This document shows positions 7,553-42,748 of a DNA stretch of 64,000 bases, in pieces. The stretch comes from Candidatus Adlerbacteria bacterium (GTDB lineage: Bacteria; Patescibacteriota; Minisyncoccia; Phycocordibacterales; SBAW01). Made by a program: the position numbers and the translations under genes. The stretch spans positions 34,353 through 98,352 of the forward strand of contig CAINNF010000017.1 in assembly GCA_903851045.1 (NCBI GenBank), in the 5' to 3' direction. The first letter of the stretch is position 1. Every line of letters begins with the position of its first letter. The notes under the pieces are model-generated. The model made no database searches. It saw only the letters and a list, made by a program, of their open reading frames with translations, and was not told the origin of the DNA.

Positions 7553-7606
7553 AAAGTATTTTGTGCCTTTATAGTACGAGCGTGTGTATGTTGAATGGAG
7601 GAGTAG

Positions 7607-21335: not shown

Positions 21336-22133
21336 ATGAATTTTCATGTCGTTACCTTATTCCCCGAAGTGGTGGACGCTTATGCACAGGCGTCTATTCT
21401 TGGTCGTGCTCAAGAAGAGAAGAAGTTGAGCGTGAAGACGTACCAGCTGCGGGATTTTGTAACGAACCACGTAAAACCGCTTCGCGGCCACGTGGCAGGT
21501 ACGTGGGGATACAAGAAGGTCGATGAGCGGCCGTATGGTGGTGGCCCAGGGATGGTACTGCAGGCCGAGCCTTTCATCCGCGCCATTGAGACAATCCAAA
21601 AAAAGATCAACAAAAATAAACGTAGTCAGACTGCGTTAGTTGGGAGTGGGCGGAAGGTGCGTGTGTTGGTGACTGCTGCGGGTGGTAAGACGCTTACCAA
21701 CGCGTATGCTAAGGCGCTCACGAAAGAGGAGAACGTCATCATTTTGTGCGGACGATACGAGGGGATCGATGAGCGGGTGAAGAAGGTTGCGACTGCTTTG
21801 GGTGCGAAGGTTGAGGAGGTTTCGGTTGGCCCCTACATCCTCACTGGGGGTGAGCTGCCCGCGCTCACTATCATCGATGCGGCTGCTCGCCAGATACCGG
21901 GAGTACTCGGTAAGTTCGAATCTCTGGAGGAGGGAAGGGTTGCCAGCCACGAGATCTACACCCGACCGGAGGTCTTAGAGTGGAAGGGGAGGGACGGCAA
22001 GGTAAAAAAGTATCGAGTCCCGAAGGTCCTTTTGTCCGGCAACCACGCCAAAATGGACGAATGGAAGGCCAAAAAGCGCTCAATGGGGGCAGATGTGGAC
22101 AAACAGGCCCCAAAAGGCTTGACTCGCCTCTAA
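21336..22133 (+). CDS. trmD: tRNA (guanine37-N1)-methyltransferase
   Basis: MNFHVVTLFPE start, YGGGPGMV and CGRYEGIDERV SPOUT-knot motifs. Confidence 0.9.
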   Translation: MNFHVVTLFPEVVDAYAQASILGRAQEEKKLSVKTYQLRDFVTNHVKPLRGHVAGTWGYKKVDERPYGGGPGMVLQAEPFIRAIETIQKKINKNKRSQTALVGSGRKVRVLVTAAGGKTLTNAYAKALTKEENVIILCGRYEGIDERVKKVATALGAKVEEVSVGPYILTGGELPALTIIDAAARQIPGVLGKFESLEEGRVASHEIYTRPEVLEWKGRDGKVKKYRVPKVLLSGNHAKMDEWKAKKRSMGADVDKQAPKGLTRL

Positions 22134-22458
22134 ATACCCTTATACTTGTAGATGAAACCAAAAGCGGGCAGTCCTAGGCGAAAGCTGAAGGGCGAAACGA
22201 GTGAGTAACGAGAGCGGGGTTTCTCACAAAAAACAGGGTGGCACGAAATAATTAAAGCTTCATAGAGGAAGCCGGGAGCATTGTATATGCGCCCCTTATT
22301 TGCGTGTTTGGGAGGTGTTGATATCTCCCTTGCTCCGTCTTCGACTTTGAGATACCTACAGGGATCTCACGTGTGGATAGCGAGCTTGCGTCGATAGTAG
22401 AAAAGGTGGTAGCGGGATTTTACTAACTTTATAAACGTTCGATAAGAGAAACACGTAT

Positions 22459-25400
22459 ATGCGAGAGAAAAAGTATTTCAGCCGGTTCCGTGCGCCGCGT
22501 GTCGAGACGCCGAATCTCGTCGAGGCACAGGTCGAGTCCTATAAGGAGCTTCTGAAGGGTGGCGTGAAGGATATCTTCAAGGAGTTCACTCCTATCAAGG
22601 ACTACTCCGGCAAGAAGTTCGACCTTGAGTTCGTGAAGATCGAGCTCGGTGAGCCGAAATTCGACGAGCACTACGCCAAGGAGCAGAAGATGACGTTGGA
22701 TATGCCGCTACGCGGTATCGTTCGGTTGCGCAACAAGACCACCGGCTCCGAGAAGGAGCAGGAGATCTTCCTTGCGGACTTCCCCGTGATGACCGACCAC
22801 GGTACCTTCATCATCAACGGTGTCGAGCGTGTCATCGTCCCCCAGCTGGCACGCTCCTACGGTGTCTTCTTTACCGCCGAAGAGGTGAAGGGTAAGCGTC
22901 ACTTCGGCGCGAAGCTTATCCCGGCCCGCGGCGCATGGATCGAACTCGAAGCTGAGTCTGACGGCGGTCTCGCTGTCCGTATCGACCGTAAGCGAAAGTT
23001 CCCCGCGCTCTCCCTCCTGCGCGTGTTTGGTGCGACCTCCGACGAAGATCTCAAGAAGCTCTTTGCCGACTCCGAGCACGGACTTCGCTGGATCGAAGAC
23101 GCGCTTTCCAAGGATGTGACCAAGTCCGTCGATGATGCGTACGTCGAGATCCACAAGCGTTTGCGTGATGGTGACTTGGCGACCGTTGCGAACGCTCGCG
23201 AATACATCAACTCCATCTTTAGTGAGGACCGCTACGACCTTTCCCGCGTCGGGCGCTTCCGCTTCAACCAACGCTTCGACCTCTCGCTCGAAGAGGCTGA
23301 CCTCGCACGCAAGACACTCTCGCTCGCTGACCTTGTCATCGTCTTCAAGCACATCCTTGAGCTCGAGAACGACCCTGATGCGGTCGAGGACAATATCGAC
23401 CACCTCGGCTCGCGCCGCGTCCGCTACGTCGGCGAGATGCTCCAGCAGCGCCTTCGTGTCGGCCTCACCCACATGAAGCGCAACATCCAGGACCGCATGT
23501 CGACGATCGACACCGATGCGTCCATGCCACAGCAGTTCGTTAACCCGCGACCACTGCAGGCCCGTATCAAAGAATTTTTTACCACCAACCAGCTCTCCCA
23601 GTTCATGCAGCAGGAGAACGCGCTCACCGAGCTCGAACACCTGCGAACGCTCTCGGCACTGGGTCCCGGAGGTCTCACGCGCGAGCGCGCGGGCTTCGAG
23701 GTTCGCGACGTCCACCCATCCCACTACGGACGCCTCTGCCCGATCCACACCCCTGAAGGCCCGAACATCGGCCTTATTCTGCGTCTCTCGACGTTCGCCC
23801 GCGTCAACGCGTTCGGCATGATCGAGACGCCGTACGTCAAGGTTGAGAATGGTCATATCACGAAAGAGATCGTCTATCTCAACGCTGCAGAAGAAGAGAA
23901 GCGTTCTATCGCACACGGTGCGGTCAAGGTCGTCAACGAGAAGTTCGTCGATGAGTTCGTCGATGCGCGTCTCAACAGCGTCCCGACACGCGTCGCCGCG
24001 AAGGATGTCGAACTGATGGATGTGACGCCGGAGCAACCGTTCTCGGTCGCAACCTCAATGATTCCGTTCCTTGAGCACGACGACGCGAACCGTTCGCTCA
24101 TGGGTTCGAACATGCAGAAGCAGGCGACCCCGTGCATCCTTCCTGAGGCGCCGCTCGTCGGCACCGGTATGGAGGAGCGTGCTGCAAAGGACACTGGCCG
24201 CCTCATCATCGCGAAAGAGGATGGTATGGTGGTCCAAGCAGACGGCAAGCACATCATCGTTCGCAACCAGAAGGGGAAGGACACCGAATATCCGCTCATC
24301 AACTTCGTCCGTACCAACGGCTTTACCGCGCTCCATCAGCGACCAAGTATCTCGGTCGGCACCGCGGTCAAGAAGGGTGACCTGCTCGGCGACACCTCGT
24401 CGACCGACGGCGGCCAGCTCGCACTCGGGCAGAACTGCCTCGTCGCCTTTATGTGTTGGTCGGGTGCGAACTACGAAGACGCCATCATCATCTCTGAGCG
24501 CATGGTCAAGGACAGCAAGTTCTCCTCTATCCACATCGAGGAGTTCGTCTGTAACGTGCGCGACACCAAGCTTGGCGCCGAAGAGACCACTCACGATATC
24601 CCGAACGTCTCCGAGACGAAGCTCCGCAACCTCGACGAGGACGGCGTGGTTCGTGTCGGTTCCGAAGTGCGCCCAGGCGACATCCTGGTCGGCAAGATCA
24701 CACCGAAAGGCGAGACACAGCTCACTCCTGAGGAGCGACTCCTTCGTTCGATCTTCGGTGACAAGGCGCGCGATGTGAAGGACTCGTCCCTTCGCATGGA
24801 GAATGGCAAGCGCGGTCGCATCATCGGCGTCAAAGTCTTCTCCCGCGAAGCGGGCCACCAGCTCGAAAGCGGCATCATCAAGCGCATCCACATCGAGGTC
24901 GCGCAGCTGCGCAAGGTCTCGGTCGGCGACAAGCTCGCAGGTCGTCACGGCAACAAGGGCGTTATTTCCCGCATCCTGCCCGAAGAGGATATGCCATACA
25001 CCGCGGACGGTCGTCCGGTCGACGTCATCCTGACACCGCTGGGCGTGCCGTCTCGTATGAACCTCGGACAAATTTTGGAGCTGCACCTCGGACTCGCTGC
25101 GAACACCCTTAACTACCAAGCTATCTGTCCGCCGTTCGCGGGAGCGACCGAAGTCGAGATCCGCGAGGAGTTGAAGAAGGCCGGCTTTAACGAAAGCGGC
25201 AAGATGCAGCTCTTCGACGGTCGTACCGGCGAGGCGTTCGAGCAGGACATCTCGGTCGGCTACATGTACATCTTGAAACTCCACCACATGGTCGAGGACA
25301 AGATCCACATGCGCTCGATCGGACCGTACTCTCTTATCACCCAGCAGCCACTGGGCGGTAAGGCACAAGGCGGCGGTCAGCGCTTCGGCGAAATGGAGGT

Positions 25401-28400
25401 GTGGGCACTGCTCGGCTACGGCGCGTCATATACGCTGCGCGAGATGCTCACGATCAAGTCCGACGACATCAGTGGTCGGTCCGCAGCCTTCGACTCTATC
25501 GTGCGCGGTGAGCGCATCAACCACCACTACGCGCCGGCATCCTTTAACGTGCTCCTCCACACCCTGCGCGGTCTCGCGCTCGACGTCGAGCTGATGCGCG
25601 GCGGCAGTGCGGTCACCAACGCGCGCAAGACGCCGGGTGCCGAGGCCTCCGACTTCGACTCGGTGCGCATCCGACCAGCATCCCCTGAACGCATCTTGGA
25701 ATGGTCGCACGGCGAGGTCACCAAGCCTGAAACCATCAACTACCGCACCCAACGTCCAGAGAAGAACTCGCTCTTCGACGAGAAGATCTTCGGTCCTGAG
25801 CGCGACTATGAATGTTACTGCGGTAAGTATCGCGGCATTCGCTACAAGGGTATCGTCTGCGAGAAGTGCGGTGTCGAGATCACTCGCTCAATAGTCCGTC
25901 GCGAGCGCATGGGTCACGTCGACCTGGCGGTCCCGGTCGCACACGTATGGTTCCTTCGCGCTATTCCGTCGCGTCTCGCCATGGTGCTCGGCATCTCTGG
26001 GGGCGATCTCGAGAAGGTCGTCTACTTCGCGGGCTACATCGTCAACCAGGTTCACCGTGAGGAAAAGGAGCGCATCATCGGCGAACTCGAAGCTGAGTAC
26101 AAGTCGAAGATGAAGAATCTCCAGGACGAGAAGTCGAAGGACAAGATGAAGGACCTCTTCCTCGATGCCAAGCGCGACATCGACTCTATCGTCATCGGTG
26201 CGGTACTCGACGAGCCACGCTACCACCGCTATGTCATCAAGTACGGCGCGATGTTCGAGGCCGGTATCGGTGCCGAAGCGCTCTACAACCTGTGCAAGAA
26301 CCTCGATGTGAAGCAGATGATCGCCGACACGGTCACGGCGCTCGAAAAGGCCGGTGCCGCAGAGCGCGAGAAGCTCGGCAAGCGACTCTCGATCCTGCGC
26401 GGTATGGCGAAGTCCAACATTCGCCCCGAGTGGATGTTCCTGACCCGCATCCCGATCATCCCGCCAGGCCTGCGACCGATGGTCGCGCTCGACGGCGGCC
26501 GTCATGCGACCTCCGACATCAACGACCTCTACCGACGCGTCATCAACCGCAACAATCGTCTCAAGAAGCTCATCGAGATCCATGCGCCGGACGTCATCCT
26601 CCGCAACGAGAAGCGCATTCTGCAGGAAGCGGTCGACACGCTCATCGACAACTCTATCCGCCATGGCGGCGCGGCGTTCTCTGCGACGACCCAGGCGCGC
26701 ACACGACCGCTCAAGTCGCTCTCCGACAACCTCAAAGGTAAGCACGGTCTCTTCCGTCAGAACCTGCTGGGTAAGCGCGTCGACTACTCGGGTCGCTCTG
26801 TCATCGTCGTCGGTCCAGAACTTCGGCTCAACCAGTGCGGTCTGCCGAAGCACATGGCACTGGAACTCTTCCGTCCGTTCGTCATCGGCAAGCTCCTCGA
26901 GAAGGAACTCGCCTATAACATCCGCGGCGCGGGTCGTCTTATCGACGAAGGCGTACCGGAGGTATGGGCGATCCTCGAAGATGTCATCCGCGACAAGTAC
27001 GTGCTGCTTAACCGCGCACCGACCCTCCACCGCTTGGGTATTCAGGCCTTCCAGCCGATCCTTATCGAAGGGAACGCTATCCAGCTGCACCCGCTCGTCT
27101 GTTCGGCGTTCAATGCGGACTTCGACGGCGACCAGATGGCCGTCCATGTGCCGCTCTCACCTGAGGCGCAGGCGGAGGCTCGCGAGATCATGTCCGCGAC
27201 CAAGAACATCCTCAAGCCGGGTAACGGCGAGCCGGTCATCGCATCCAAACTGCTCGACATTCTGCTCGGTACGTATTGGATGACCAAGGAAGTGAAGGGC
27301 GCAAAGGGCGAGGGTCTCGCATTCTCGAGTCCGAACGCCGCCATTCTCGCGTACGACCACGGTCGCGTCGGCTTCCAGGCGAAGATCCGTGTGATGCCGA
27401 GTGAGAAAGAGAAGTATGCCGCGTTCGGCAATCAGCTCTTCGAGACGACCGCAGGCCGACTCCTCTTCAACACCGTCTTCCCGAACGACTACCCATTCGT
27501 CAATACTGCGATCGACAAGAAGGGTCTCGCGAAACTCGTCGACAACCTTATCGACCGTTATGGACTCGAGAAGATCCCGGATACCATGGACAAGATCAAG
27601 AACTTCGGTTTCCGTTACGTCACCCAGTCCGGTATCACCTGGTCGCTCGACGACATACGTGTCCCGGCCGAGAAGGATGGCATCATCATCGAAGCACAGC
27701 GCAAGTCGCACGAAGTCGTCGAACACTGGGAGCAAGGCTTGCTCTCCGAGGAAGAGCGCTATCGCATGAACATCGAGATCTGGCACGACGCGAAGTCACA
27801 GGTCGAGAAGTGCATCCCAGCGACGCTCCCGATCGACGGTTCGGTCTCCGACATGATCAAGTCAGGCGCCCGCGGCTCTATCGGACAAGTGACGCAGATG
27901 GCCGGCATGAAGGGTCTCATCTCATCACCATCGGGTGATACGATCGAACTCCCGGTGACGAAGTCCATGAAGGAAGGTCTCTCGCCACTTGAGTACTTCC
28001 TCACGACGCACGGTTCGCGCTCGGGCCTCGCCTCAACGGCGCTCTCGACCGCGAAGGCCGGGTACCTCACGCGCCGACTCTTTGACGTCGCACAAGACAT
28101 CGTGGTCTCCAGCGACGAATGCGGCACGAAAGAGGGTCTCACGATCCACCGTGTCTCCGCATCCGGCATCGGTACCTTCCTTGCGAAGAACATCGAAGGT
28201 CGCTACTTGGCAGAGGATGTCATGCACGACGGTAAGCTCATCTATAAGAAGGGGCAATTCCTGCTCGGACCGGACGCTCGTCATATCGAAGAGCTCGGTG
28301 TGCAGTCGGTATACGTTCGCTCTCCTGTAGGTTGTAAGTCACACCGCGGCATCTGCGGGCACTGTTATGGTGCGGACCTCTCGACCGGCAAGCCTGTCGC

Positions 28401-29301
28401 GCTCGGTGAGGCGGTCGGTACGGTCGCCGCACAGGCTATCGGCGAGCCGGGTACCCAGCTCACGATGAACATCAAACACGCCGGCGGTGCGGCATCCGCA
28501 GCCGGTGACGTGACCCAGGGTCTCCCGCGCGTCGAAGAAATCTTCGAGCGCCGCTCTCCGCGCAACCCAGCGGTCGTTTCGACCATCTCGGGTGAGGTTG
28601 TCGAGATCCGCTCGACCGACAAGGAGAAGGTCATCTGCATCGCACCGGACCTAGAGCATCGTGGTAAAGGCAAGAAGGACGTCTTCGAGTTCGAATGCCA
28701 CCTGCGCCGCTTGCCGCTCGTGAAGGTGGGGGAGAAGGTCACGAAGGGTCAGATCATCACCGATGGTTCTGCCGACCTCGCCGACCTCTTCGCCTACGCC
28801 GGTAAGGAAACGACACAGGAATACATCATCACCGAGGTCCTCAAGATCTATGAGCTCCAGGGAGCAAGTATCTCCATCAAGCACCTCGAAACGATCATCC
28901 GCCAGATGTTCTCGCGCGTGAAGATCGTGAAGTCGGGCGACACGGAGTACTCCAAGGGTGATGTCGTCGCCGAGGCTGACATGACCTATGCCAACAATGC
29001 GGCAGAGGCTGCAGGCGGCGAGAAGGCGACCACCGAGCCGCTCGTCATGGGCATCCTCGATGTCTCACTCTCACGCCCGAGCTTCCTTTCGGCAGCATCC
29101 TTCCAGAACACGACACGCATGCTCATCCGTGCCTCGATGTACGGCTCGGTCGACAAGCTCGAAGGTCTCAAAGAGAACGTCATCATCGGCCGCCTCATCC
29201 CAGCCGGCACCGGCTTCAAGGGTTCACCAAAAGAAAAGTTGGTCAACCGCTACGCCCCCGTCGACCATGCGGACGTGGTGACGGAGAAGGAGACGGTCTA
29301 G
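22459..29301 (+). CDS. rpoBC: DNA-directed RNA polymerase beta and beta-prime subunits fused in one 2280-aa ORF
   Basis: The N-terminal ~1060 aa is RpoB ([77 protein letters not shown]). It continues without a stop through ...[49 protein letters not shown] into RpoC (zinc finger [22 protein letters not shown], catalytic [14 protein letters not shown]). Confidence 0.9.
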   Translation: [2280 protein letters not shown]

Positions 29302-29369
29302 TCGTTCGAAAAATTAGAACATAAAAAGTCAGCGGCCCGACAGGATGATTCCTGCCGGGCCGTTTGGCG

Positions 29370-29735
29370 TTAGTGTGAATCAGTGGGGTGGGGTAGCAAG
29401 AATATTTGTTCGACACGACCCGTTATTCTCCGTCTCCCATCTTCATTGTCCATTATGATTATTTTGCCAACTTGGACAAAATATATTTTCCAAATCCCTT
29501 GGTATCCTGCCGTCATGCCACCACTTGTTATGCATTGATACATCCGAGCCACGAATCCGTCTTTGGCGGCACCTATCACCTCAAAAAAGTACGCATTCCC
29601 CGACCTCGTGTGAATGCGCACCACTGTCTTGGGACTCAATGTCTCTAAGTTGAGGTCTTTGACGACCGCTGTGCCGTAGTGGCACAACAGTCGGAGCACT
29701 TCTTCGGTTCCGACTTGCGAAAGGTCTTTCTGCAA
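29370..29735 (-). CDS. hypothetical protein (121 aa), AT-richer than flanks
   Basis: ATG-initiated minus-strand ORF convergent with rpoBC. No motif recognised. Confidence 0.4.
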   Translation of the reverse strand: MQKDLSQVGTEEVLRLLCHYGTAVVKDLNLETLSPKTVVRIHTRSGNAYFFEVIGAAKDGFVARMYQCITSGGMTAGYQGIWKIYFVQVGKIIIMDNEDGRRRITGRVEQIFLLPHPTDSH

Positions 29736-29834: not shown

Positions 29835-29876
29835 ACAAAAGAAAGTGGGCGCAGGTTCCGGCTGGAACCTGCGCCC
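29835..29876 (-). terminator. strong rho-independent terminator on the minus strand
   Basis: 13-bp stem gggcgcaggttcc / ggaacctgcgccc with 4-nt loop. On the minus strand it is followed by CTTTCTTTTGT. Confidence 0.65.
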
Positions 29877-32016: not shown

Positions 32017-32090
32017 CCGTCATCGGACAGATGTATTGTTCGACCACATCATTTTGCAAACGCGGTATGGACGAGAGATAATTGGGTAGC

Positions 32091-32708
32091 ATGAAGCATT
32101 TCCGCATACTGCCGTCCCGGTACTCTTTTCGTTTGGTCACGAAAAAAGATTTCCCACGTTCATCCACCGTTCAACCTCGTGCCGCGCCACTGTCCGAAGT
32201 GGTCGTCGAAGCAAACGGCACCGAGGTTGATGTAAGTAAACGAATGTTCCTTAAGCTCGCGGGTCTCGCGGGTCTTGGTGTCGTGGCATCGCAGATGCTC
32301 CCCGGCAAAGCGAGTGCGTATGTGATGGGTAGCACACCAACATCTCCAGTCGTCGGACTAAAGGATTCGACGAACACGAGGATAGACCCTGCGACCGCTG
32401 CGGGTCTTGGGGTGAGTAAGGTGTCGACGTCGCTCTCGTCGTCGGGAGTCGTATATACGCCCACATCCGGCAAAAAGATACACGTGTATGCGTGCCGTTT
32501 TTCGCTGACCGCCGATGCAACCTCGGTGTCGTTTCGATTCACCTCCGGTGGGACCGATTATGAGATGTATGTGTCACCGAAGGCGGGCGGTCTCTATGGA
32601 GCGAACAACCACCCGAACTATATTGAGGGTGGGGCGAACCAAGCGCTGTACTGTGTGATATCGGGGACGACTACGGTGCAAATTAACATTGACTACCTTG
32701 AGGCATAG
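32091..32708 (+). CDS. secreted protein with Tat-like (KR) signal peptide and beta-rich domain (205 aa)
   Basis: ATG 32091. SKRMFLKLAGLAGLGVVASQMLPGKASA resembles the twin-arginine motif S-R-R-x-F-L-K with KR substitution. First gene of the island. Confidence 0.5.
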   Translation: MKHFRILPSRYSFRLVTKKDFPRSSTVQPRAAPLSEVVVEANGTEVDVSKRMFLKLAGLAGLGVVASQMLPGKASAYVMGSTPTSPVVGLKDSTNTRIDPATAAGLGVSKVSTSLSSSGVVYTPTSGKKIHVYACRFSLTADATSVSFRFTSGGTDYEMYVSPKAGGLYGANNHPNYIEGGANQALYCVISGTTTVQINIDYLEA

Positions 32709-32736
32709 TCATGTATAATCAAAGATAATATCCATT

Positions 32737-35700
32737 ATGGCCAGACGAGTAGTAGAAGAAATATTTACCGGTGCGACGGTGCCGTACACATCGTATGACT
32801 CCACGAAGATAGTCACCGGGGATCTTATCGAGCAGTACATCGGCGCGAATCCGTCCGACAAATATATTGGTCCAACTCGTGTTGGGCGTGATTCGACGGG
32901 GACCATCTATGGCATGGGTCGTCCGTTCGAGGCGACCGCCGGTGTAGCGGGCGTATTTCCCCATGTTGTCCGTTGGGCGAATAAGTCTGGATACTATACG
33001 ACCGGTACGGTCGCTGTCTCTGGTACGAGCGTCACTGGTAGCAGCACGGCATGGCTCACCAATGGCGTGCCCATCGGTGCGACCATCGGCTTTGGCACCA
33101 CCGACCCGACGCAGGTGACCACCTGGTATACCATCAACGCTATTACGTCGGATACAGCGATTACGATAGGCACTTCGGCCGGTACTATCGCGGGCGGTAC
33201 ATCCTTCGTTATCAACAAGACCTTGCAGACCGACTGGGTATTTTTGGGAGACGGTTCTGCGGCTGCGGCAACCCGCAAGATACAGCTCTATGAGTTCAAC
33301 CGAAGCACCTCTGCTTTTACTGCAAAAGGATATGCGACACTTAACTACCCCTATGCCGGCACACAGGGCACCTATGTGCTGCACGGCCTTAAGGTGTCCT
33401 ATCAACCCTATACCACGGGTACTGTCCAATCCGGCGGCATGACGCCCAATGGTGCCTATTACAGCACTGGCACCGTTGCTGTCACGACTACGGCTGTGAC
33501 AGGCACTGGTACTACGTTCACTGCCGCTATGCAGGGTATGATGATCGGGTTTGGCTCGACCAACCCAGATTCCATCGCTACGTGGTACTACATCCAGACG
33601 TTTGGTTCGACCACAGCCCTCACACTTGCGACTTCAATTGGTGCAACTGCGATACCTGCAAGTACGCCCTATGTCATAGCGACCATATACAATGTCGGTA
33701 CCGTTGCGGTATCGGGTACGGGCGTCACGGGTACCGGCACCACCTTCTCCAACACCGGTATCTACAATGTGGCAGGTATGGCCATCGGCTTTGGCTCTGT
33801 GAACCCCGGCCAGATTACCACGTGGTATACCATCCAAACATGGGGCTCGAGCACGTCACTCACACTCTCAACATCAGCAGGGAGTCTCGGCTCTGGTCTC
33901 TCATATGTAATTGTTATCATGGCAGGTACGGCGTCGGTGTCGGGCAACGCGGTCACTGGTGTTGGTTCAAGCTTCTCGACCACGACCCAGGCGGGTATGC
34001 TCATTGGTTTTGGCTCGGTCAACCCCGCTTCGATAAGTAATTGGTATGTGATTAGTGCGGTCGGATCGACGACCGCGATGACTCTGGTGACCAGTCCGGG
34101 CACGGTCGGAGCCGGTCCATATGTCATCGTTATCGGTTCGATCGTTGGTTCGGGGACTTTGTGGTCCACGAGTAGAATCGCGGTCGGTTCGCGCATAGGC
34201 TTTGGTTCGACCGACCCAACACAGATATCCACCTGGTACTACGTCAACGCTATCGACAGCGATACTATCATGAATATCCAAGCGTCCGCGACAGCGACCG
34301 GTGTCGGAGGCGCCATGGTCGCGCTCTCGCTCGCCGCGAGTACGCCGTATGTGATAGAAGATCTTAAGATAGTCACCACTGCCACGAACGGCACCACTGC
34401 CACGAACGGTGGGCTATTCGTCGCCATGGGCCTTTCCTATGGCGATTTTGTGAACAGCGGCACCACTATCTCTGCCGCAACGATGATCGACAAGATAAAA
34501 GCGAACTACTGGCTCGGTGACGCAGCCACCTCGAACAACACCACCGCGTGCGCCTGTGTTATCGACGACTTCGTCTCGTGGACGACGCAGTACCGCTACG
34601 TCATCGACGGTGCCGGCGGTACCAGCGCAAGAGTCTACAAATATAATATTCGCAGCGGTCTATCCATACCCACCAGTGGTACCAACGGTAAGGACATCAC
34701 GGCGTTCATGTTCAGCACGTTGGCCCAAACGACGGCCAACAACCTACCTGCTATCGCTGCCAACAACAGTGTCGCATGCATCGCCACGCTCAACCATGGC
34801 CCTGGCGCAGGTGTGAAATGTCTCTATTTCATGAGTATTGCAAAGATACATCGTGCCAGAATTAGCGACATTACCACCAACGCATCGACCTGGTGGACAG
34901 ACTCCATGGTCGAAATACCGACTGGCGGTGCGGCAACCTACACCGCCTCGAGCGTGCTCAACCAAATTGCCGTGGACACCCAGATAGATCGCCTCGTCAT
35001 CACCACCAGCGGTGCCGCCACGTCGCCCGCCTCGAACCGCGCGTATGTCACCCAGTACAATGCGGTCAATAGTCCGATGGATCATATGTTCTTGGTCGAA
35101 TCCAGACAGCTCGACCAGTCATCCGAAGATGGCGCGGCTGCTCCGCACCCGAGCCTCATCGCCAGTACCTTCCTGTCGCTTTGGTCAGAAGGGGGGATAA
35201 CCTATATCGCTAAGACTGGCGCTGCTGCTACGATAAGTCAGATATATGCACTGCCTCTGGGTGCTGACTGGGCGTACGCGAACGGGACGGTCAACCAACG
35301 TCTGATAACCCCGGCGCTCGCCACCACGAATGCGGTCAAACTGGTGCGTGTGTATGTGAACAGTCAACCCTTTGCGGGGAGCGCGAACGTCTCGTCTCCA
35401 GGCAACCTGACGATTCCAAGCGAACCGTACCGACTACTCTATCGAACATCTGGTATCAGTGACAACTCGGGGACATGGACGGCGCTCACCGACTATACGG
35501 GGGATCTCTCGGGAGCGACCCCGGGGTCACAGATACAATTCGCGATCGAGTTTCGTACTATCGGCACGTTCTGTATTCCTAATAGAGTCTATAATCTCGC
35601 CTGTGTGTACGAAGATAATACGACCGACAGTCACTACCAACCGTCCGCTGGCCTCTCTTCGGTCACGACCAAGACGTTCGCATGGCGCTTTGCGACCGCG

Positions 35701-35955
35701 TGGGGCGGCACGGTGCCAACCTTGCGCGTGACACTTTTCGACGCGGTGAGCGGCGCACAGCTGTTCACCGACACGACCGCAGCATCACCCTTGCTCTGGC
35801 AAAAGACGACGAGCGGTGCCGGCGGATGGGGTGCGTATGACACGAACGATCTCACCGCATCTCCGGATGCGAAGTATAGCAATACATACATCAGCTACAC
35901 GCCGACGTCCCTTGGAGACAATATTAAGGTTCGCGCTCTGCTCACACAGGCATAA
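32737..35955 (+). CDS. 1072-aa Gly/Thr/Ser/Ala-rich repeat protein, no signal peptide
   Basis: Five or more ~75-aa repeats of the form TGTVAVSGTxVTGTGTTF...IGFGSxNPxxITTWYTIQTxGSxTxLTLxTS between ~33.0 and 34.3 kb. The remainder is beta-rich low-complexity. ATG 32737 is 29 nt after the upstream gene. Confidence 0.65.
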   Translation: MARRVVEEIFTGATVPYTSYDSTKIVTGDLIEQYIGANPSDKYIGPTRVGRDSTGTIYGMGRPFEATAGVAGVFPHVVRWANKSGYYTTGTVAVSGTSVTGSSTAWLTNGVPIGATIGFGTTDPTQVTTWYTINAITSDTAITIGTSAGTIAGGTSFVINKTLQTDWVFLGDGSAAAATRKIQLYEFNRSTSAFTAKGYATLNYPYAGTQGTYVLHGLKVSYQPYTTGTVQSGGMTPNGAYYSTGTVAVTTTAVTGTGTTFTAAMQGMMIGFGSTNPDSIATWYYIQTFGSTTALTLATSIGATAIPASTPYVIATIYNVGTVAVSGTGVTGTGTTFSNTGIYNVAGMAIGFGSVNPGQITTWYTIQTWGSSTSLTLSTSAGSLGSGLSYVIVIMAGTASVSGNAVTGVGSSFSTTTQAGMLIGFGSVNPASISNWYVISAVGSTTAMTLVTSPGTVGAGPYVIVIGSIVGSGTLWSTSRIAVGSRIGFGSTDPTQISTWYYVNAIDSDTIMNIQASATATGVGGAMVALSLAASTPYVIEDLKIVTTATNGTTATNGGLFVAMGLSYGDFVNSGTTISAATMIDKIKANYWLGDAATSNNTTACACVIDDFVSWTTQYRYVIDGAGGTSARVYKYNIRSGLSIPTSGTNGKDITAFMFSTLAQTTANNLPAIAANNSVACIATLNHGPGAGVKCLYFMSIAKIHRARISDITTNASTWWTDSMVEIPTGGAATYTASSVLNQIAVDTQIDRLVITTSGAATSPASNRAYVTQYNAVNSPMDHMFLVESRQLDQSSEDGAAAPHPSLIASTFLSLWSEGGITYIAKTGAAATISQIYALPLGADWAYANGTVNQRLITPALATTNAVKLVRVYVNSQPFAGSANVSSPGNLTIPSEPYRLLYRTSGISDNSGTWTALTDYTGDLSGATPGSQIQFAIEFRTIGTFCIPNRVYNLACVYEDNTTDSHYQPSAGLSSVTTKTFAWRFATAWGGTVPTLRVTLFDAVSGAQLFTDTTAASPLLWQKTTSGAGGWGAYDTNDLTASPDAKYSNTYISYTPTSLGDNIKVRALLTQA

Positions 35956-35963
35956 TCTCGCAT

Positions 35964-36626
35964 ATGAAAGTACGCATCTATCAAGACCAACCGGTACCTG
36001 ACAGCCCAGGCATCCTCGTGTTGTCACCGACGGGGGACTATGCCCCGTTCGATTTTATCGAGTGTTACCTTGCGGGTATGCCGGGGCAGTCGTACTGTGC
36101 GCATCAAGCGCAGTTCGTTAAGTTCGGTAGCATCGTATATCGAGAGGTAGAGTATATCAATCTGCTTAACCAGCTTGGGTTAGTGAACATCCAGCCAGAA
36201 ACGCTCCAGGATATGTTGTTGAAGGACCAATCGACCATCGTGATAGACAAGGATCCACAAGACATCGTCACACCGACGGCAGTATCGGCGGTCGTGGCGG
36301 ATGTGACGGTGACCGCACCTGCGAACCAATACTCCACCACGACGGACGAGATCATTCCTCCCACGACGACCACGACCGATACGGTTGCGAGCTCGACCCA
36401 AGCTGTTTCGCTGCCCATCGATACGAGTACCACTACTCCTGTGACTATTCCCGACGCCACCTCCACGCCACCTCTGGAAGGGTTTAGCACAACGACGGTG
36501 CCGATACTTGATGCAAGCACGACCACGTCAGCCGACCCGACTGCCGCGAGCACGACAGACACGACGGCGAGCACCTCGACCGCTGCGCAAGTTCCCGCAT
36601 CCGACTCACGATTAACCGCCTTCTGA
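35964..36626 (+). CDS. hypothetical protein with Thr/Ser/Pro-rich C-terminal half (220 aa)
   Basis: ATG 35964, 9 nt after the upstream stop. The C-terminus is TTTTTD...STTTP...ASTTD low complexity. Confidence 0.5.
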   Translation: MKVRIYQDQPVPDSPGILVLSPTGDYAPFDFIECYLAGMPGQSYCAHQAQFVKFGSIVYREVEYINLLNQLGLVNIQPETLQDMLLKDQSTIVIDKDPQDIVTPTAVSAVVADVTVTAPANQYSTTTDEIIPPTTTTTDTVASSTQAVSLPIDTSTTTPVTIPDATSTPPLEGFSTTTVPILDASTTTSADPTAASTTDTTASTSTAAQVPASDSRLTAF

Positions 36627-36634
36627 TTTTGCGT

Positions 36635-36820
36635 ATGGCTCTTACCGATATCGATTTTCAAAATGGTGAGGGTCAGGATTTTATCCTTGAGTTGCCGAGT
36701 GTGGTATATAGCGGCGTATTAACCGACATACTCATCGAGCCCAGCGGGAGTCAGTTTTTTGTGCTCGAGACGGCGAAGATAGTCAACTCGGGCAACAAGA
36801 TCTTTATCATGTCCGAATAA
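36635..36820 (+). CDS. small hypothetical protein (61 aa)
   Basis: ATG 36635 (the track uses TTG 36629). Ends 6 nt before the tatC ATG. Confidence 0.35.
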   Translation: MALTDIDFQNGEGQDFILELPSVVYSGVLTDILIEPSGSQFFVLETAKIVNSGNKIFIMSE

Positions 36821-36826
36821 GTGTGT

Positions 36827-37609
36827 ATGGACCGCCTGACCGCATACGTCGAGACCTACGGAGACTACTTAGAGGACGTTCGTCGTCGTTTGTACGTGGT
36901 CGTGATCATTTTCGTGTGCATCTTCGTCGCTGGATTCTTTGCGACACCCTATTTGGTCAAGCTCATGACGAGTTTCTTGAAGATCTCGAGCGTGTCTATT
37001 GTCGCGACCGCACCCTTTCAGCTTATCGATCTGGCGATGGATGTCGGGTTCTTTTTGGCTGTCGTGTTCACGAGTCCGGTGCTTTTGTATCACATCTATC
37101 AGTTCCTTCGTCCCGGACTCCTCTACGCTGAGCGCCGCATTTTCTTTTTTCTCATACCGGTCGGGGTGGTGCTTTTCATGCTCGGCTTTACGTACGGTTT
37201 CGCCATCATGTACTGTGCGCTCGGTGCGGTGGCGATTGTTAATCAGAGTGTCGGCATCGTGAATCTTTGGGACATCAGTCTGTTCATGTCGCAGATGTTG
37301 CTCACCTCGACGCTGCTCGGTTTGTTGTTCGAATTTCCCATCATCATCAGTTTTCTTATTCGTCTCGGGGTGGTGCAAGTCGACTTTCTGCGTGCGAAAC
37401 GTCGGCATGCGATCGTGATTATCTTTTTGTTCGTTGGACTGCTGCCACCAACGGATGGTTTGTCGCTTATCCTTATGTCCGCACCGCTCGTGGCGATCTA
37501 CGAGCTTACGATTATACTTAATGCACAGCGTGTGGGGGTGGCAACCACGCGGTGCTTATCGTGTTCTTGTTCGGTGCGAAGAAGATTCCAGAGCTCACGA
37601 GCGGTGTAG
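36827..37609 (+). CDS. tatC: Sec-independent (Tat) translocase subunit TatC
   Basis: Six-TM topology with TatC-like N-terminus MDRLTAYVETYGDYLEDVRRRLYVVVIIF and C-terminal PPTDGLSLILMSAPLVAIYELTIIL. The last ~25 codons (VGVATTRCLSCSCSVRRRFQSSRAV) are probably read-through into the degenerate tatA copy, so the true C-terminus is uncertain. Confidence 0.75.
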   Translation: MDRLTAYVETYGDYLEDVRRRLYVVVIIFVCIFVAGFFATPYLVKLMTSFLKISSVSIVATAPFQLIDLAMDVGFFLAVVFTSPVLLYHIYQFLRPGLLYAERRIFFFLIPVGVVLFMLGFTYGFAIMYCALGAVAIVNQSVGIVNLWDISLFMSQMLLTSTLLGLLFEFPIIISFLIRLGVVQVDFLRAKRRHAIVIIFLFVGLLPPTDGLSLILMSAPLVAIYELTIILNAQRVGVATTRCLSCSCSVRRRFQSSRAV

Positions 37610-37692
37610 CGGACGCCATCCGTCACTTGCGCGGCGCGTTCCGGGACGAGCCAGGTGCTGACACAGTGGTCGCCACTACTAGAAAAAAATAA
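37521..37692 (+). pseudogene. degenerate tatA paralog (frameshifted / N-terminally truncated)
   Basis: Frame 1 from 37552 encodes VLIVFLFGAKKIPELTSGVADAIRHLRGAFRDE, parallel to intact TatA LIVFLFGSKKIPEFGKMFADGIRTLRSGFKDE, and shares the 22-nt stretch cttatcgtgttcttgttcgg with it. The nearest upstream ATG (37521) is in a different frame. Copy 1 is 11 nt shorter than copy 2 between ATG and the shared block. Confidence 0.4.
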
Positions 37693-37705
37693 GAACGTAC
37701 ATCGT

Positions 37706-37876
37706 ATGCCATTCGACCTCGGTGCTAAAGAACTGTTAATTATAGCCGCGCTTATCGTGTTCTTGTTCGGATCGAAGAAGATTCCCGAATTCGGGAAAAT
37801 GTTCGCTGACGGTATCCGCACCCTGCGAAGCGGCTTCAAGGACGAGGTCGCGGTACAGGCGGTAGCAAAGAAATAG
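37706..37876 (+). CDS. tatA: Sec-independent (Tat) translocase subunit TatA/E
   Basis: MPFDLGAKELLIIAALIVFLFGSKKIPEFGKMFADGIRTLRSGFKDE: TM helix, FG hinge, amphipathic helix. 56 aa. Confidence 0.8.
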   Translation: MPFDLGAKELLIIAALIVFLFGSKKIPEFGKMFADGIRTLRSGFKDEVAVQAVAKK

Positions 37877-37918
37877 GAGCATCACCGCTCTCATGGGGGA
37901 GAGGTATTTCGTATATCT

Positions 37919-41854: not shown

Positions 41855-42744
41855 GACACTACCGAAACATATTTTGGATCATAGCCGTGCTCACCGTACT
41901 CCCAGGTTCGGCTCATGCCGCTACCGACGTATTGACGATAGAGCCACCGATTGGCGTTGTGTCGGTTGGAGATACGGTGCTGGTGCCTGTCTACCTTTCG
42001 ACCTTGCGGAATGTGAACGCGGTGGATGGGGAAGTGAGCGTCATCGGTCCAGTGACTGTCGTCTCGAATGACACGAGCGGCTCGGTGTTGACGCTCTGGC
42101 CACTGCCGCCGTCTCTGAGTGGTAGCGCGATATCCTTCACTGGTGGTGCGGTCACCAGCTTGACCGGGGCGCATCTAAAATTATTCTCTATCGCGGTGAA
42201 GATCACTGGTGCAGGACCCATCACGTTCAAAGTACAACATGGCACCGCCTATCTGGCGGATGGACAAGGGACTCCGCTTTCACTTACGGGTGTTGCGGCA
42301 GGGGTCACGGCGGGTACGGGTGCGTCAGCACGAAACGATCTTGCGATCGAGATACAACATGACACGACTCCACCCGAGCCGTTCACTATCGACTATGGGA
42401 GAGATCCACAGGTGTACGGTGGTAACTATTTCATTAGCTTTGGAGCGGTCGACACGCTGGGTGGCATAGACCACTACGATGTCACCGAAGGGACTCTCCC
42501 ATCGGTGCGCAGCGGTGATACATACGTGCTTCAGCGCCAGGGTCAGGACGAGACGATTACAGTCACCGCATATAACAAAGCCGGCCGTGCCCGCGTATCA
42601 ACCTACACCGTCTCGGTGTCTCGTCCAGCCGGAGGGGTGGAGTGGATGTGGCTCTTGATTATACCACTGCTGTTGTTCGCTGCTGTCTCATACGTACTCT
42701 ATTGTCGAAGTACGAGACGTCGTGTGAAAAAGAGGAAGAGATAA
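41851..42744 (+). CDS. membrane-anchored cohesin-domain protein (297 aa)
   Basis: ATGA overlap with the upstream stop. Signal peptide. Cohesin-like beta-sandwich blocks (VSVGDTVLVPVYLSTLRNVNAVDGEVSV...LTLWP...ISFTGG...ITFKV). C-terminal TM (WMWLLIIPLLLFAAVSYVLY) plus basic stop-transfer tail RRRVKKRKR. Confidence 0.6.
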   Translation: MRHYRNIFWIIAVLTVLPGSAHAATDVLTIEPPIGVVSVGDTVLVPVYLSTLRNVNAVDGEVSVIGPVTVVSNDTSGSVLTLWPLPPSLSGSAISFTGGAVTSLTGAHLKLFSIAVKITGAGPITFKVQHGTAYLADGQGTPLSLTGVAAGVTAGTGASARNDLAIEIQHDTTPPEPFTIDYGRDPQVYGGNYFISFGAVDTLGGIDHYDVTEGTLPSVRSGDTYVLQRQGQDETITVTAYNKAGRARVSTYTVSVSRPAGGVEWMWLLIIPLLLFAAVSYVLYCRSTRRRVKKRKR

Positions 42745-42748
42745 TACT

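What the first reader, a model, noticed from the sequence alone, without database searches (positions are those of the whole stretch)
22459..29301. rpoB and rpoC fused into a single 2280-aa ORF
The reading frame is continuous from the RpoB start through the RpoB C-terminus (…LRGLALDVELMRGG) into the RpoC N-terminus (SDFDSVRIRPASPERILEWSHGEV… with the CYCGKYRG…CEKCG zinc finger).

Natural beta/beta-prime fusions are rare. Helicobacter and Wolbachia are the known examples. A fusion is phylogenetically informative, and it removes the usual rpoB-rpoC intergenic regulation.

The gene follows trmD after a 325-nt leader, not rplL.
Basis: seen in the sequence. Interest (0 to 1): 0.6.

Follow-up and report, generated by a model that had tools for sequence, protein, structure and literature searches.

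The report
Fused RNA polymerase beta–beta' gene
The two largest subunits of bacterial RNA polymerase are encoded here as one 2,280-residue protein, and this fusion is fixed in a whole clade of ultra-small Patescibacteria, so it is a further natural example of an arrangement already known from Helicobacter and Wolbachia rather than a new kind of enzyme.

Summary
Window 22459-29301 (+) is one uninterrupted 2280-codon ORF holding a complete RpoB (aa 1-1045) and a complete RpoC (aa ~1065-2280), joined by 19 residues.

It is not an assembly error. 83 cluster representatives of 2198-2299 aa (74-100% identity) from NCBI, ENA, JGI and Logan assemblies carry the same junction, and six loci checked as DNA are in frame.

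The organism is a Paceibacteria-type (Parcubacteria) bacterium. Relatives carry inconsistent NCBI labels such as Adlerbacteria and Kaiserbacteria.

The junction adds no domain. It is the beta C-terminus joined directly to the ancestral beta' N-terminal head, whose K-x-P-x-E motif also occurs in unfused Zambryskibacteria beta'.

A tree places unfused lineages between this clade and two other fused Paceibacteria lineages, so the fusion arose at least three times in this class. At least 17 further fused clusters exist elsewhere, including Mycoplasma wenyonii and Desantisbacteria.

The trmD...rpoB...dnaG-rpoD context predates the fusion.

The 325-nt upstream region holds a consensus promoter and a clade-specific, conserved ~160-nt leader with a terminator-like hairpin.

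Verdict: real, a new member of a known kind, of moderate interest.

The parts
22119..22146 (+). Sigma-70-type promoter-like site, TTGACT-16 nt-TATACT, overlapping the end of trmD
   Evidence: It matches 10 of 12 consensus positions. The -35 and -10 hexamers align in all relatives of the fused clade.
22154..22313 (+). Conserved ~160-nt leader core of rpoBC, specific to the fused clade F1
   Evidence: Covariance model R1 hits once per F1 locus in 16 of 16 loci, at E = 1e-14 to 1e-29, always just upstream of rpoBC. Three of these loci were not in the training set. There are no hits in non-F1 loci or elsewhere in 419 kb. The minimum free energy z-score is negative in 14 of 14 leaders, with a mean of -2.17. 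Rfam has no match.
22199..22206 (+). GAGTGAGT, an instance of the GA[ATG]TG[ATC]GT box
   Evidence: The box is present in 45 of 54 Paceibacteria rpoB upstream regions, fused or unfused, where about 0.05 per region is expected by chance. In non-F1 loci it mostly starts 14-18 nt after the -10 hexamer.
22201..22227 (+). Leader helix H2 region (in the window the GUGAG/CUCAC variant)
   Evidence: The helix has 6 pairs. Two of them show both-sided changes (UA<->AU and UA<->CG) in 6 of 16 sequences, and 92.7% of cells are paired.
22274..22309 (+). Terminator-like hairpin (GGGAGCAU...AUGCGCCC, with a conserved A/G mismatch) followed by a U-rich tract, about 150 nt upstream of the start codon. Candidate attenuator.
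   Evidence: The hairpin appears in the minimum free energy fold. It is conserved with a T-run in all F1 leaders, and 92% of its cells are paired. It does not meet the strict terminator scan because of the mismatch.
22459..29301 (+). rpoBC: a single ORF of 2280 codons plus a TAG stop
22459..25593 (+). Beta (RpoB) module, aa 1-1045, ending ...LRGLALDVEL
   Evidence: Pfam Rpb2 domains 1, 2, 3, 45, 6 and 7 are present, and NF001616 is covered at 3-1095 of 1096. The end corresponds to the natural beta C-terminus of unfused relatives, which read ...DVEL followed by a 9-16 aa tail.
25594..25650 (+). Junction, aa 1046-1064: MRGGSAVTNARKTPGAEAS. It is a remnant of the beta tail and/or the ancestral beta' N-terminal head, including the conserved K-T-P-G-A-E.
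   Evidence: Alignment of 126 fused proteins. The K-x-P-x-E head occurs at the N-terminus of unfused Zambryskibacteria beta', for example MNNNYKNPGVE. Synonymous codon changes across relatives keep the frame. AlphaFold2 shows pLDDT below 50 and no secondary structure at aa ~1054-1063, in a poor model.
25651..29298 (+). Beta' (RpoC) module, aa 1065-2280, starting DFDSVRIRPASPE
   Evidence: Pfam Rpb1 domains 1-5 are present, TIGR02386 is covered at 2-1144 of 1147, and NADFDGD is present.
25813..25869 (+). Beta' zinc-binding cysteine cluster, C-Y-C-...-C-E-K-C
   Evidence: Read directly from the sequence.
29333..29362 (.). A 13-bp G+C-rich inverted repeat 32 nt after the stop codon, flanked by an A-run and a TTTGGCGTT tract. 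Probably a bidirectional terminator shared with the convergent ORF at 29370-29735.

Best explanation
This is a genuine, evolutionarily fixed rpoB-rpoC gene fusion in a clade of Paceibacteria (Patescibacteria/CPR), here called F1.

Shown:
- One ORF encodes a complete beta followed by a complete beta'.
- The same in-frame junction is kept across a clade whose fusion proteins have diverged to 74% identity.
- The junction adds no foreign sequence. It is the beta C-terminus (...LALDVEL) followed by at most a few tail residues and then the ancestral beta' N-terminal head.

Inferred:
- The fusion arose by an in-frame loss of the rpoB stop codon, most of the lysine-rich beta tail and the 9-72 nt spacer. 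A recent, still polymorphic Zambryskibacteria fusion (P0088) shows exactly this kind of deletion.
- The product is made as one polypeptide in which a flexible ~19-residue tether joins two termini that lie side by side in assembled RNA polymerase. The enzyme would then work like ordinary alpha2-beta-beta' core, with beta and beta' in obligate 1:1 stoichiometry and assembling within one molecule. This is what was shown for Helicobacter pylori and for an engineered E. coli beta-beta' fusion.
- The fusion is probably near-neutral and hard to reverse, because splitting it again would need a new stop codon, ribosome-binding site and start codon together. That would explain why it is fixed once it occurs and why it recurs in lineages with tightly packed rpoB-rpoC genes.

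The gene appears to be a transcription unit of its own. It has a consensus promoter at 22119-22146, a conserved ~310-nt 5' leader containing a terminator-like hairpin (candidate attenuator), and a hairpin after the stop codon.
For: ORF and domains.

Conservation: 83 cluster representatives (clustered at 90% identity) of 2198-2299 aa at 74-100% identity, from NCBI, ENA, JGI and Logan. Their junctions align without frame breaks and share ...DVEL-M-x9-10-K-T-P-G-A-E-x2-DFD.

DNA-level continuity with synonymous variation in the window, L083, L086 and L087, and in L130 and L131.

Origin of the junction: unfused Zambryskibacteria beta' proteins start M-x2-3-(Y/F)-K-N-x-P-x-E-x2-3-FD. Unfused beta proteins end ...DVELKK plus a 9-16 aa tail and a stop. 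P0088 reads ...DVELKKKK|MNSNYKNPGAE..., and unfused versions sit in the same 90%-identity cluster.

Phylogeny: NJ tree of 64 taxa and 2145 columns with 100 bootstraps. F1 is monophyletic (100%) inside Patescibacteria (100%), sister (85%) to a group of unfused L003, unfused L001 and fused P0088, and far from Helicobacter and the other fused lineages.

Tether: aa ~1054-1063 have pLDDT below 50 and no secondary structure.

Functional precedent: Helicobacter/Wolinella make a single ~2900-aa polypeptide (PMC1557499; PMC9696931). A fused E. coli beta-beta' assembles into active polymerase (PMC1750930 citing Severinov et al. 1997).

Own promoter, leader and terminator.
Against: There is no protein-level evidence (proteomics or purified enzyme) for any member of this clade.

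Most F1 members keep a Met right at the joint (DVEL-M), and NCBI's pipeline annotates beta' as starting there. Internal initiation therefore cannot be excluded.

The AlphaFold2 model of the excised fragment is poor (mean pLDDT 63), so the 'disordered tether' reading is weak.

The proximity of the beta C-terminus to the beta' N-terminus was taken from established structural knowledge and not measured here. No fused chain was among the best 60 PDB matches.

The tree is a distance tree with few unfused Paceibacteria. Those loci were retrieved with a bias towards rpoB and rpoC lying in the same frame.

The neutral-ratchet interpretation is an inference.
Confidence: 0.88

Rival explanations
1. The ORF is fused, but the cell still makes a separate beta'. 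This could happen by internal translation initiation at the conserved Met1046 (or the V/M at aa 1052), or by proteolytic cleavage in the linker. The functional enzyme would then contain free beta' and/or free beta.
For: Met follows DVEL in most F1 junctions. NCBI annotation starts beta' exactly there in at least 7 genomes. The linker is predicted to be unstructured and therefore accessible to proteases.
Against: The Met is replaced by L, Q, T, A or V in several F1 members (P0003, P0016, P0042, P0046, P0049, P0077-P0082).

No Shine-Dalgarno-like sequence beyond a GAG lies upstream of it (GACGTCGAGCTGATG).

Beta has no stop codon, so internal initiation would only add surplus beta'.

In the NCBI records the beta region is simply left without a protein, although it is an intact 1052-1065-codon in-frame continuation. 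That is an annotation artefact, not evidence.

In Helicobacter the fused protein is a single polypeptide.
Confidence: 0.1
2. The fusion is an artefact: a sequencing or assembly error removed a stop codon or frameshift between two ordinary genes.
For: The window is a single metagenomic assembly, and raw reads were not available.
Against: The identical protein occurs on at least 5 contigs from NCBI and ENA.

83 diverged cluster representatives from four independent sources keep the same frame and junction motif.

Codon-level alignment shows many synonymous differences and no frame disruption.
Confidence: 0.01
3. The fused gene shares ancestry with a previously known fused lineage (Helicobacter/Wolinella, Wolbachia, Mycoplasma wenyonii), either by descent or by horizontal transfer.
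For: It has the same overall architecture. It gives high partial scores to the NCBIfam fused models NF007172 and NF011417.
Against: The scores are far below the cut-offs for those equivalog families (2080 against 5372, and 1956 against 4632).

The tree places F1 inside Patescibacteria next to unfused Zambryskibacteria, at distance 0.93 or more from Helicobacter and the other fused lineages.

The junction sequences are unrelated.

The protein is ~600 aa shorter and lacks the proteobacterial insertions.
Confidence: 0.01

Closest known systems
Helicobacter/Wolinella RpoBC (NCBIfam NF007172, ~2890 aa; Zakharova et al. 1998/1999, cited in PMC1557499 and PMC9696931)
   Same: Natural in-frame rpoB-rpoC fusion giving one beta-beta' polypeptide. 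It is fixed in a clade and usable as a rare genomic change. The junction is made of the natural termini plus a short linker. L079 (H. muridarum) served as the positive control and was scored 'FUSED' by the same test.
   Different: Independent origin (tree). The junction sequence is unrelated. The Helicobacter protein is about 600 aa longer. The window protein scores 2080 bits against a family cut-off of 5372. The organism here is an ultra-small CPR bacterium, and the gene is not downstream of rplL.
Wolbachia-type RpoBC (NCBIfam NF011417, ~2839 aa)
   Same: Fused beta/beta' in a bacterium with a reduced genome.
   Different: The window protein scores 1956 bits against a cut-off of 4632. The phylum is different. 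I did not retrieve a named Wolbachia sequence, so the comparison rests on the NCBIfam model only.
Engineered E. coli beta-beta' tether (Severinov, Mooney, Darst & Landick 1997, cited in PMC1750930)
   Same: It shows that covalently joining the beta C-terminus to the beta' N-terminus is compatible with assembly and activity. This is the mechanistic precedent for how the window protein should work.
   Different: It is artificial and is not fixed in any lineage. The same source notes a presumed in vivo advantage of keeping the chains separate.
Other fused RpoBC proteins sitting unremarked in databases: Mycoplasma wenyonii WP_014849752 (2648 aa), Candidatus Desantisbacteria OIN97496 (2534 aa, named 'Multifunctional fusion protein' by UniRef), and the second Paceibacteria clade F2 (2209-2300 aa)
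   Same: Same architecture. F2 is also Paceibacteria and of similar size.
   Different: They have separate origins. F2 has a shorter junction with no Met (...EPVYDSPLARKDDF...), a different gene context (ftsW-mltG-rpoBC-rpsF-ssb-rpsR) and only 50-54% identity.
E. coli rplL-rpoB attenuator (for the leader only)
   Same: A terminator-like element in the transcribed region just upstream of rpoB, a plausible means of feedback control of RNA polymerase synthesis (for E. coli; here).
   Different: No sequence or Rfam relationship. Here the leader follows its own promoter rather than ribosomal protein genes. Function is untested.

Membership tests
Bacterial RNA polymerase beta subunit (RpoB; NF001616 / TIGR02013) | Full-length match above the curated cut-off | tested here: met
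   NF001616 scores 1427.8 bits against a cut-off of 896, covering model positions 3-1095 of 1096 at aa 4-1046. TIGR02013 scores 1415.7 bits against 801. All six Pfam Rpb2 domains are present.
Bacterial RNA polymerase beta' subunit (RpoC; TIGR02386) | Full-length match above the cut-off, the catalytic NADFDGD motif and the N-terminal zinc-binding cysteines | tested here: met
   TIGR02386 scores 1463.2 bits against a cut-off of 963.5, covering model positions 2-1144 of 1147 at aa 1069-2255. NADFDGDQMAVH and CYCGKYRG...CEKCG are present.
Natural beta-beta' fusion (architecture class) | rpoB and rpoC in one reading frame with no stop, frameshift or start requirement between them | tested here: met
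   The same holds in five other loci of the clade.
Natural beta-beta' fusion (architecture class) | The fusion is conserved in relatives, so it is not a one-off error | tested here: met
   83 full-length fused cluster representatives at 74-100% identity with a conserved junction.
Natural beta-beta' fusion (architecture class) | A single polypeptide exists in the cell and is incorporated into active RNA polymerase | not testable with these tools
   This needs proteomics or purification. The precedent exists only in Helicobacter and in engineered E. coli.
Helicobacter-type RpoBC equivalog (NF007172) | Score at or above the curated cut-off (5372 bits) | tested here: not met
   2080.1 bits, spread over 5 stretches.
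Wolbachia-type RpoBC equivalog (NF011417) | Score at or above the curated cut-off (4632 bits) | tested here: not met
   1956 bits, spread over 6 stretches.
Common descent with a previously known fused lineage | Groups with that lineage in a beta+beta' phylogeny and shares its junction sequence | tested here: not met
   The NJ tree puts F1 inside Patescibacteria (100% bootstrap) next to unfused lineages. The junctions are unrelated.
Intrinsic-terminator attenuator (leader, 22274-22309) | G+C-rich hairpin immediately followed by a U-tract, conserved, lying between the promoter and the start codon | tested here: inconclusive
   The hairpin and T-run are conserved in 16 of 16 F1 leaders, with 92% of cells paired. 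The stem carries a conserved A/G mismatch and fails the strict scan. Across all Paceibacteria the strict scan found 18 of 54 on the + strand against 15 of 54 on the - strand. Termination was not measured.
Any described RNA family (Rfam 15) for the leader | Match at the gathering score or at a convincing E-value | tested here: not met
   No match at gathering threshold anywhere in the window. The only hit was a chance-level E = 0.22 match to a eukaryotic lncRNA, on the opposite strand.

The most novel reading that the evidence does not exclude
Paceibacteria are a hotspot where rpoB-rpoC fusion has happened repeatedly. There are at least three events: one ancient and fixed in a large clade, and one caught in progress, with fused and unfused alleles above 90% identity in groundwater Zambryskibacteria. 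This offers a natural experiment on why beta and beta' are usually separate.

In the large clade the fused gene is also governed by a previously undescribed, clade-specific ~160-nt structured leader ending in a terminator-like hairpin. That leader could be an autoregulatory attenuator for RNA polymerase synthesis. It is built around a GAWTGAGT box conserved at the 5' end of rpoB leaders throughout Paceibacteria.
Probability: 0.3. Interest if true: 0.55.

Novelty: new member of a known kind. Interest (0 to 1): 0.38.

Why it matters
(1) The fusion gives a clean rare-genomic-change marker for a large, poorly named clade of Paceibacteria, whose members carry inconsistent NCBI labels (Adlerbacteria, Kaiserbacteria, Nomurabacteria, Pacebacteria, even Acetobacteraceae). 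The marker is homoplastic at class level.

(2) Beta-beta' fusion is much more widespread than the textbook pair of examples. It recurs where rpoB and rpoC are tightly packed, which fits a near-neutral, hard-to-reverse event rather than a special adaptation.

(3) There is a practical annotation problem. NCBI records for these genomes list only a beta' protein starting at the junction Met and no RpoB protein, although the DNA encodes an intact 2283-2289-aa ORF. This can distort marker-gene completeness estimates and rpoB-based phylogenies.

(4) The compact single-chain ~255-kDa beta-beta' (E. coli beta plus beta' total 2749 aa, from my own knowledge) would be an attractive minimal RNA polymerase for structural work.

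(5) The conserved leader is a candidate new cis-regulatory element for RNA polymerase expression in CPR bacteria.

Tried and rejected
- **Genome-collection scan.** It returned mostly distant phyla, all with rpoB and rpoC in the same frame, which is a retrieval bias. It gave only 8 unfused Patescibacteria and no close relative, so a fine GTDB placement was not obtained.

- **Absences in the search for homologous proteins lists.** I first treated these as evidence that no unfused F1 member exists, then rejected that. P0088 is missing from its own search, and unfused beta' hits were missing. A beta'-only query then turned up apparent 'unfused' F1 beta' proteins. Checking the DNA showed they are internal-Met annotations of intact fused ORFs.

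- **Structure modelling.** AlphaFold2 on aa 900-1500 with 30 aligned sequences gave a poor model (pLDDT 63). It is usable only for the statement that the linker is not confidently structured. I did not run a fold search on it.

- **PDB.** No fused chain was among the best 60 matches, so there is no structural template for a natural fusion.

- **Leader.**
  - A generic test for a helix formed by the 12 nt after the GAWTGAGT box, across all Paceibacteria leaders, was not significant (mean z -0.23).
  - A strict terminator scan was not strand-specific (18 against 15 of 54).
  - RNAalifold on MAFFT and CM alignments recovered only two helices, because the other hairpins differ in length and register.
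  - Possible long-range pairings (5' GAAACC with GGUUUC; the box with a UUACUAA element near the start codon) were seen by eye but are not supported by covariation.

- **Literature.** Seven full-text searches found no report of an rpoBC fusion in Patescibacteria/CPR. The library lacks most subscription-journal papers, and Zakharova 1999 could not be opened.
Full report
**1. Observation**

The ORF list shows one ORF at 22459..29301 on the + strand, 2280 aa, starting with ATG. Its translation has no internal stop. The DNA at the proposed joint reads through in frame.

Pfam places RpoB domains 1, 2, 3, 45, 6 and 7 at aa 19-1046 and RpoC domains 1-5 at aa 1065-2165. NCBIfam covers the RpoB model NF001616 almost end to end (positions 3-1095 of 1096, aa 4-1046). 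It covers the RpoC model TIGR02386 likewise (positions 2-1144 of 1147, aa 1069-2255). Both scores are far above their cut-offs. The catalytic NADFDGD motif and the beta' zinc-binding cysteines are present.

trmD ends at 22133, so the gap to the ORF is 325 nt as stated. The upstream genes are RNase R (- strand), rpsP, a KH-domain gene and trmD. dnaG lies downstream.

**2. Not an artefact**

A search of 5.8 billion clustered proteins returned the identical protein on at least 5 contigs. It also returned 83 cluster representatives of 2198-2299 aa at 74-100% identity, from NCBI, ENA, JGI and Logan assemblies. I call this clade F1.

An alignment of 126 fused proteins around the joint shows the F1 pattern ...LRGLALDVEL-M-(9-10 variable residues)-K-T-P-G-A-E-x-x-DFDAVRIRPASPE, with essentially fixed length.

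At DNA level the window and three relatives (L083, L086, L087) differ by many synonymous substitutions across the joint while keeping the frame.

A beta'-only query later returned NCBI 'beta-prime' proteins of 1235-1246 aa at 78-84% identity that begin exactly at the junction Met. In the two I fetched (GCA_026397405.1 'Ca. Adlerbacteria'; GCA_009691465.1 'Ca. Kaiserbacteria') the frame stays open for 1052-1065 codons upstream, and the real ORFs are 2283 and 2289 aa. No protein is called over the beta region. These are therefore annotation artefacts, and they hide the fusion in public records.

**3. Who carries it**

Source names for relatives are Patescibacteria group, Ca. Paceibacterota, and (inconsistently) Adlerbacteria, Kaiserbacteria, Nomurabacteria or Pacebacteria. 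The window has 52-61% G+C.

I could not obtain a GTDB placement, because the single genome-collection scan saturated on universal peptides.

**4. Anatomy and origin of the junction**

Unfused Patescibacteria relatives end beta with ...(D/N)V(E/Q)(L/I/V) plus a 9-16-residue, mostly lysine/glutamate-rich tail. They then have 9-72 nt before the beta' ATG.

The 120 closest homologues of the beta' half of P0088 are all unfused Zambryskibacteria proteins of 1208-1245 aa. They start M-x2-3-(Y/F)-K-N-x-P-x-E-x2-3-FD-x-ISIKLASPE, for example MNNNYKNPGVEPDQFD. The conserved K-T-P-G-A-E of the F1 'linker' is therefore the ancestral N-terminal head of beta', not new sequence.

The F1 joint equals the beta C-terminus, with its tail deleted or cut to about 6 residues, followed directly by the whole beta'. 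The ancestral initiator corresponds either to Met1046 or to the V/M column at aa 1052.

P0088 shows the process. It reads ...DVELKKKK|MNSNYKNPGAE... on five contigs from Hainich groundwater. Members of the same 90%-identity cluster have a separate beta ending ...DVELKKDAESKEKKIASDKNI* and a separate 1234-aa beta'.

An AlphaFold2 model of aa 900-1500 was poor overall (pLDDT 63). It gave pLDDT below 50 and no secondary structure for aa ~1054-1063, which is compatible with a flexible tether.

**5. Phylogeny and number of origins**

I built a neighbour-joining tree of concatenated or fused beta+beta' with 64 taxa, 2145 columns and 100 bootstraps. It gives:
- Patescibacteria monophyletic (100%).
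- F1 monophyletic (100%).
- F1 sister (85%) to a group of unfused L003, unfused L001 (Zambryskibacteria) and fused P0088, with P0088 and L001 paired at 100%.
- Unfused L002 and L004 branching outside that.
- A second fused clade F2 (P0090-P0106, P0152, L009; 100%), sister to unfused L005 (72%).

F2 has a different, shorter joint (...EPVYDSPLARKDDF...) and a different neighbourhood (ftsW-mltG-rpoBC-rpsF-ssb-rpsR).

A single origin would require repeated re-splitting in many lineages. Three independent fusions (F1, F2, P0088) is far more parsimonious.

Caveats: this is a distance method, few unfused taxa were sampled, and retrieval was biased towards same-frame gene pairs.

**6. How rare is the fusion?**

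I scanned 1.84 billion representatives (clustered at 50% identity) with a 601-aa junction-spanning query. It returned about 22 proteins longer than 2000 aa matched across the joint. 17 proteins in the returned list (14 of them longer than 2000 aa) carry the beta GEMEVWA motif upstream of the beta' NADFDGD motif in one chain.

Named examples are:
- Mycoplasma wenyonii (WP_014849752, 2648 aa).
- Ca. Desantisbacteria (2534 aa, called 'Multifunctional fusion protein' by UniRef).
- A 'Deltaproteobacteria' MAG (2846 aa).
- JGI entries explicitly named 'subunit beta-beta''.

Unnamed examples are:
- A 3132-aa protein on 3.5-4.7 Mb chromosomes that groups with Terriglobia.
- 3004-3135-aa proteins grouping with an alphaproteobacterium.

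The window protein is not a member of the two curated fused families (NF007172: 2080 bits against 5372; NF011417: 1956 bits against 4632).

**7. How it most likely works**

From the literature, Helicobacter and Wolinella make one ~2900-aa beta-beta' polypeptide (PMC1557499; PMC9696931). A fused E. coli beta-beta' assembles into functional polymerase (PMC1750930 citing Severinov et al. 1997).

From established structural knowledge (not measured here), the beta C-terminus and the beta' N-terminus lie next to each other in the clamp. A ~19-residue tether should therefore suffice.

The inferred consequences are obligate 1:1 synthesis and intramolecular assembly. I regard the fusion as probably near-neutral and hard to reverse.

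The main open rival is additional production of free beta' from the junction Met. Against it, the Met is not universal in F1, no convincing ribosome-binding site precedes it, and beta has no stop codon of its own.

**8. Context**

The order (rpsP)-KH-trmD-[0-2 variable genes]-rpoBC-dnaG-rpoD recurs in F1, in P0088 and in the unfused L002. The separation from rplL therefore predates the fusion.

The E. coli attenuator lies upstream of rpoB.

**9. The 325-nt upstream region**

A TTGACT-16-TATACT promoter-like site (10 of 12 matches) sits at 22119-22146. Its hexamers align in all F1 relatives.

About 7 nt after the -10 hexamer a conserved ~160-nt leader begins (22154-22313). In order it contains:
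- GAAACCAA...GCGGGGC.
- An optional hairpin.
- The box GA(T/A/G)TGAGT.
- A helix with compensatory changes (GUAUCGA/UCGAUAC against GUUUUGA/UCAAAAC).
- Two variable hairpins.
- A G+C-rich hairpin with a conserved A/G mismatch, followed by a T-run (22274-22309).

Evidence for the leader:
- A covariance model built on 13 leaders hits once per F1 locus, in 16 of 16 loci. Three of these were not used for training. It hits nowhere else in 419 kb.
- The two alignable helices are 92.5% paired, against 84.3% in shuffles (0 of 500 shuffles reach the observed value) and 32-55% when the partners are slid.
- All 14 leader cores fold more stably than dinucleotide shuffles, with a mean z of -2.17.
- Rfam has nothing comparable.

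The 8-nt box alone occurs in 45 of 54 Paceibacteria rpoB upstream regions, fused or not. Where a promoter was recognised in non-F1 loci it mostly starts 14-18 nt after the -10 hexamer. About 0.05 per region is expected by chance.

Broader structural tests were not significant.

I read this as a candidate attenuator-type leader for RNA polymerase expression. Its function is untested.

After the stop codon a 13-bp G+C-rich hairpin (29333-29362) probably ends the unit.

**10. Verdict**

This is a real, conserved rpoB-rpoC fusion. It is a new member of a known kind, unreported for Patescibacteria in the searchable literature.

Interest is moderate. A specialist would not be surprised that such a fusion works. 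The recurrent origins, the polymorphic Zambryskibacteria case, the annotation problem and the conserved leader add value.

Noticed in passing
window 22119-22313; also L083, L086-L094, L124, L125, L127, L130, L131 just upstream of rpoBC: A conserved promoter followed by a ~160-nt leader, specific to the fused clade, with hairpins and a terminator-like stem plus T-run. A covariance model detects it once per locus in 16 of 16 loci. It is not in Rfam. It is a candidate attenuator for RNA polymerase expression.
   Followed up: partly
window 22199-22206; upstream of rpoB in 45 of 54 Paceibacteria loci (L001-L004, L083-L129): An 8-nt box GA[ATG]TG[ATC]GT. In non-F1 loci it mostly starts 14-18 nt downstream of the -10 hexamer, at the very 5' end of the rpoB transcript. 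It is present in fused and unfused lineages and absent from more distant Patescibacteria (L006-L008, L084, L128). Its role is unknown. A simple helix hypothesis was not supported.
   Followed up: partly
L130 (GCA_026397405.1) 1366-8217 and L131 (GCA_009691465.1); proteins P0472, P0474-P0478, P0480-P0482: NCBI records of this clade annotate only a ~1240-aa beta' starting at the junction Met and call no protein over the intact beta part of the same ORF. The genomes therefore appear to lack RpoB and the fusion is hidden.
   Followed up: yes
L085 1302-8150 (P0088) and cluster members P0429, P0432, P0435-P0442: A recent rpoB-rpoC fusion inside Zambryskibacteria from Hainich groundwater. Fused (2282/2296 aa) and unfused (1083 + 1234 aa) versions sit in one 90%-identity cluster. 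The fused allele looks like a deletion of the beta tail, stop codon and spacer. In this locus the rpoBC end also overlaps the dnaG start by 37 nt.
   Followed up: partly
window 47934-55140 (- strand): A complex-I / group-4-hydrogenase-like membrane module. It comprises a fused NuoC+NuoD-like protein (522 aa), two Proton_antipo_M proteins (479 and 678 aa), a NuoH-like protein (307 aa) and a NuoB-like protein (182 aa). This is unusual for a Patescibacteria genome. In the relative L083 rpoD is followed closely by the PD-(D/E)XK and DsbA-like genes, which lie beyond this module in the window, so the module looks like an insertion.
   Followed up: no
window 32082-44278: About 12 kb lie between dnaG and rpoD, which are adjacent in every relative examined. 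The region holds large ORFs without Pfam matches (208, 1072, 220, 297 and 509 aa), a 1311-aa protein with a C-terminal dockerin domain, and TatC. It looks like a lineage-specific insertion of secreted or surface proteins.
   Followed up: no
window 5876-6772: A single 298-aa ORF combining a NusB domain (aa 7-136) with a NUDIX hydrolase domain (aa 164-280). This is another fusion involving a transcription factor.
   Followed up: no
window 25666-25689 (aa 1070-1077, RIRPASPE): Most of the fused clade has Pro in the near-universal beta' N-terminal motif (I/L)-x-L-A-S-P-(E/D), reading RIRPASPE instead of xIxLASPE. The deepest F1 members (P0077-P0082) and all other lineages keep Leu.
   Followed up: no
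P0111/L082 (3132 aa, 3.5-4.7 Mb chromosomes), P0112/P0113 (3004-3135 aa), P0107, P0110, P0185/P0443, P0165: Fused beta-beta' proteins in lineages that are not genome-reduced. They group with Terriglobia/Acidobacteriota, Alphaproteobacteria and Verrucomicrobia in the tree. The fusion is therefore not confined to host-associated or reduced genomes. P0111 is also not preceded by rplL.
   Followed up: partly
window 29333-29362: A 13-bp G+C-rich inverted repeat between the rpoBC stop codon and the convergent ORF 29370-29735, with an A-run on one side and a T-rich tract on the other. It is probably a bidirectional terminator. A second, similar 13-bp hairpin lies at 29847-29876.
   Followed up: no
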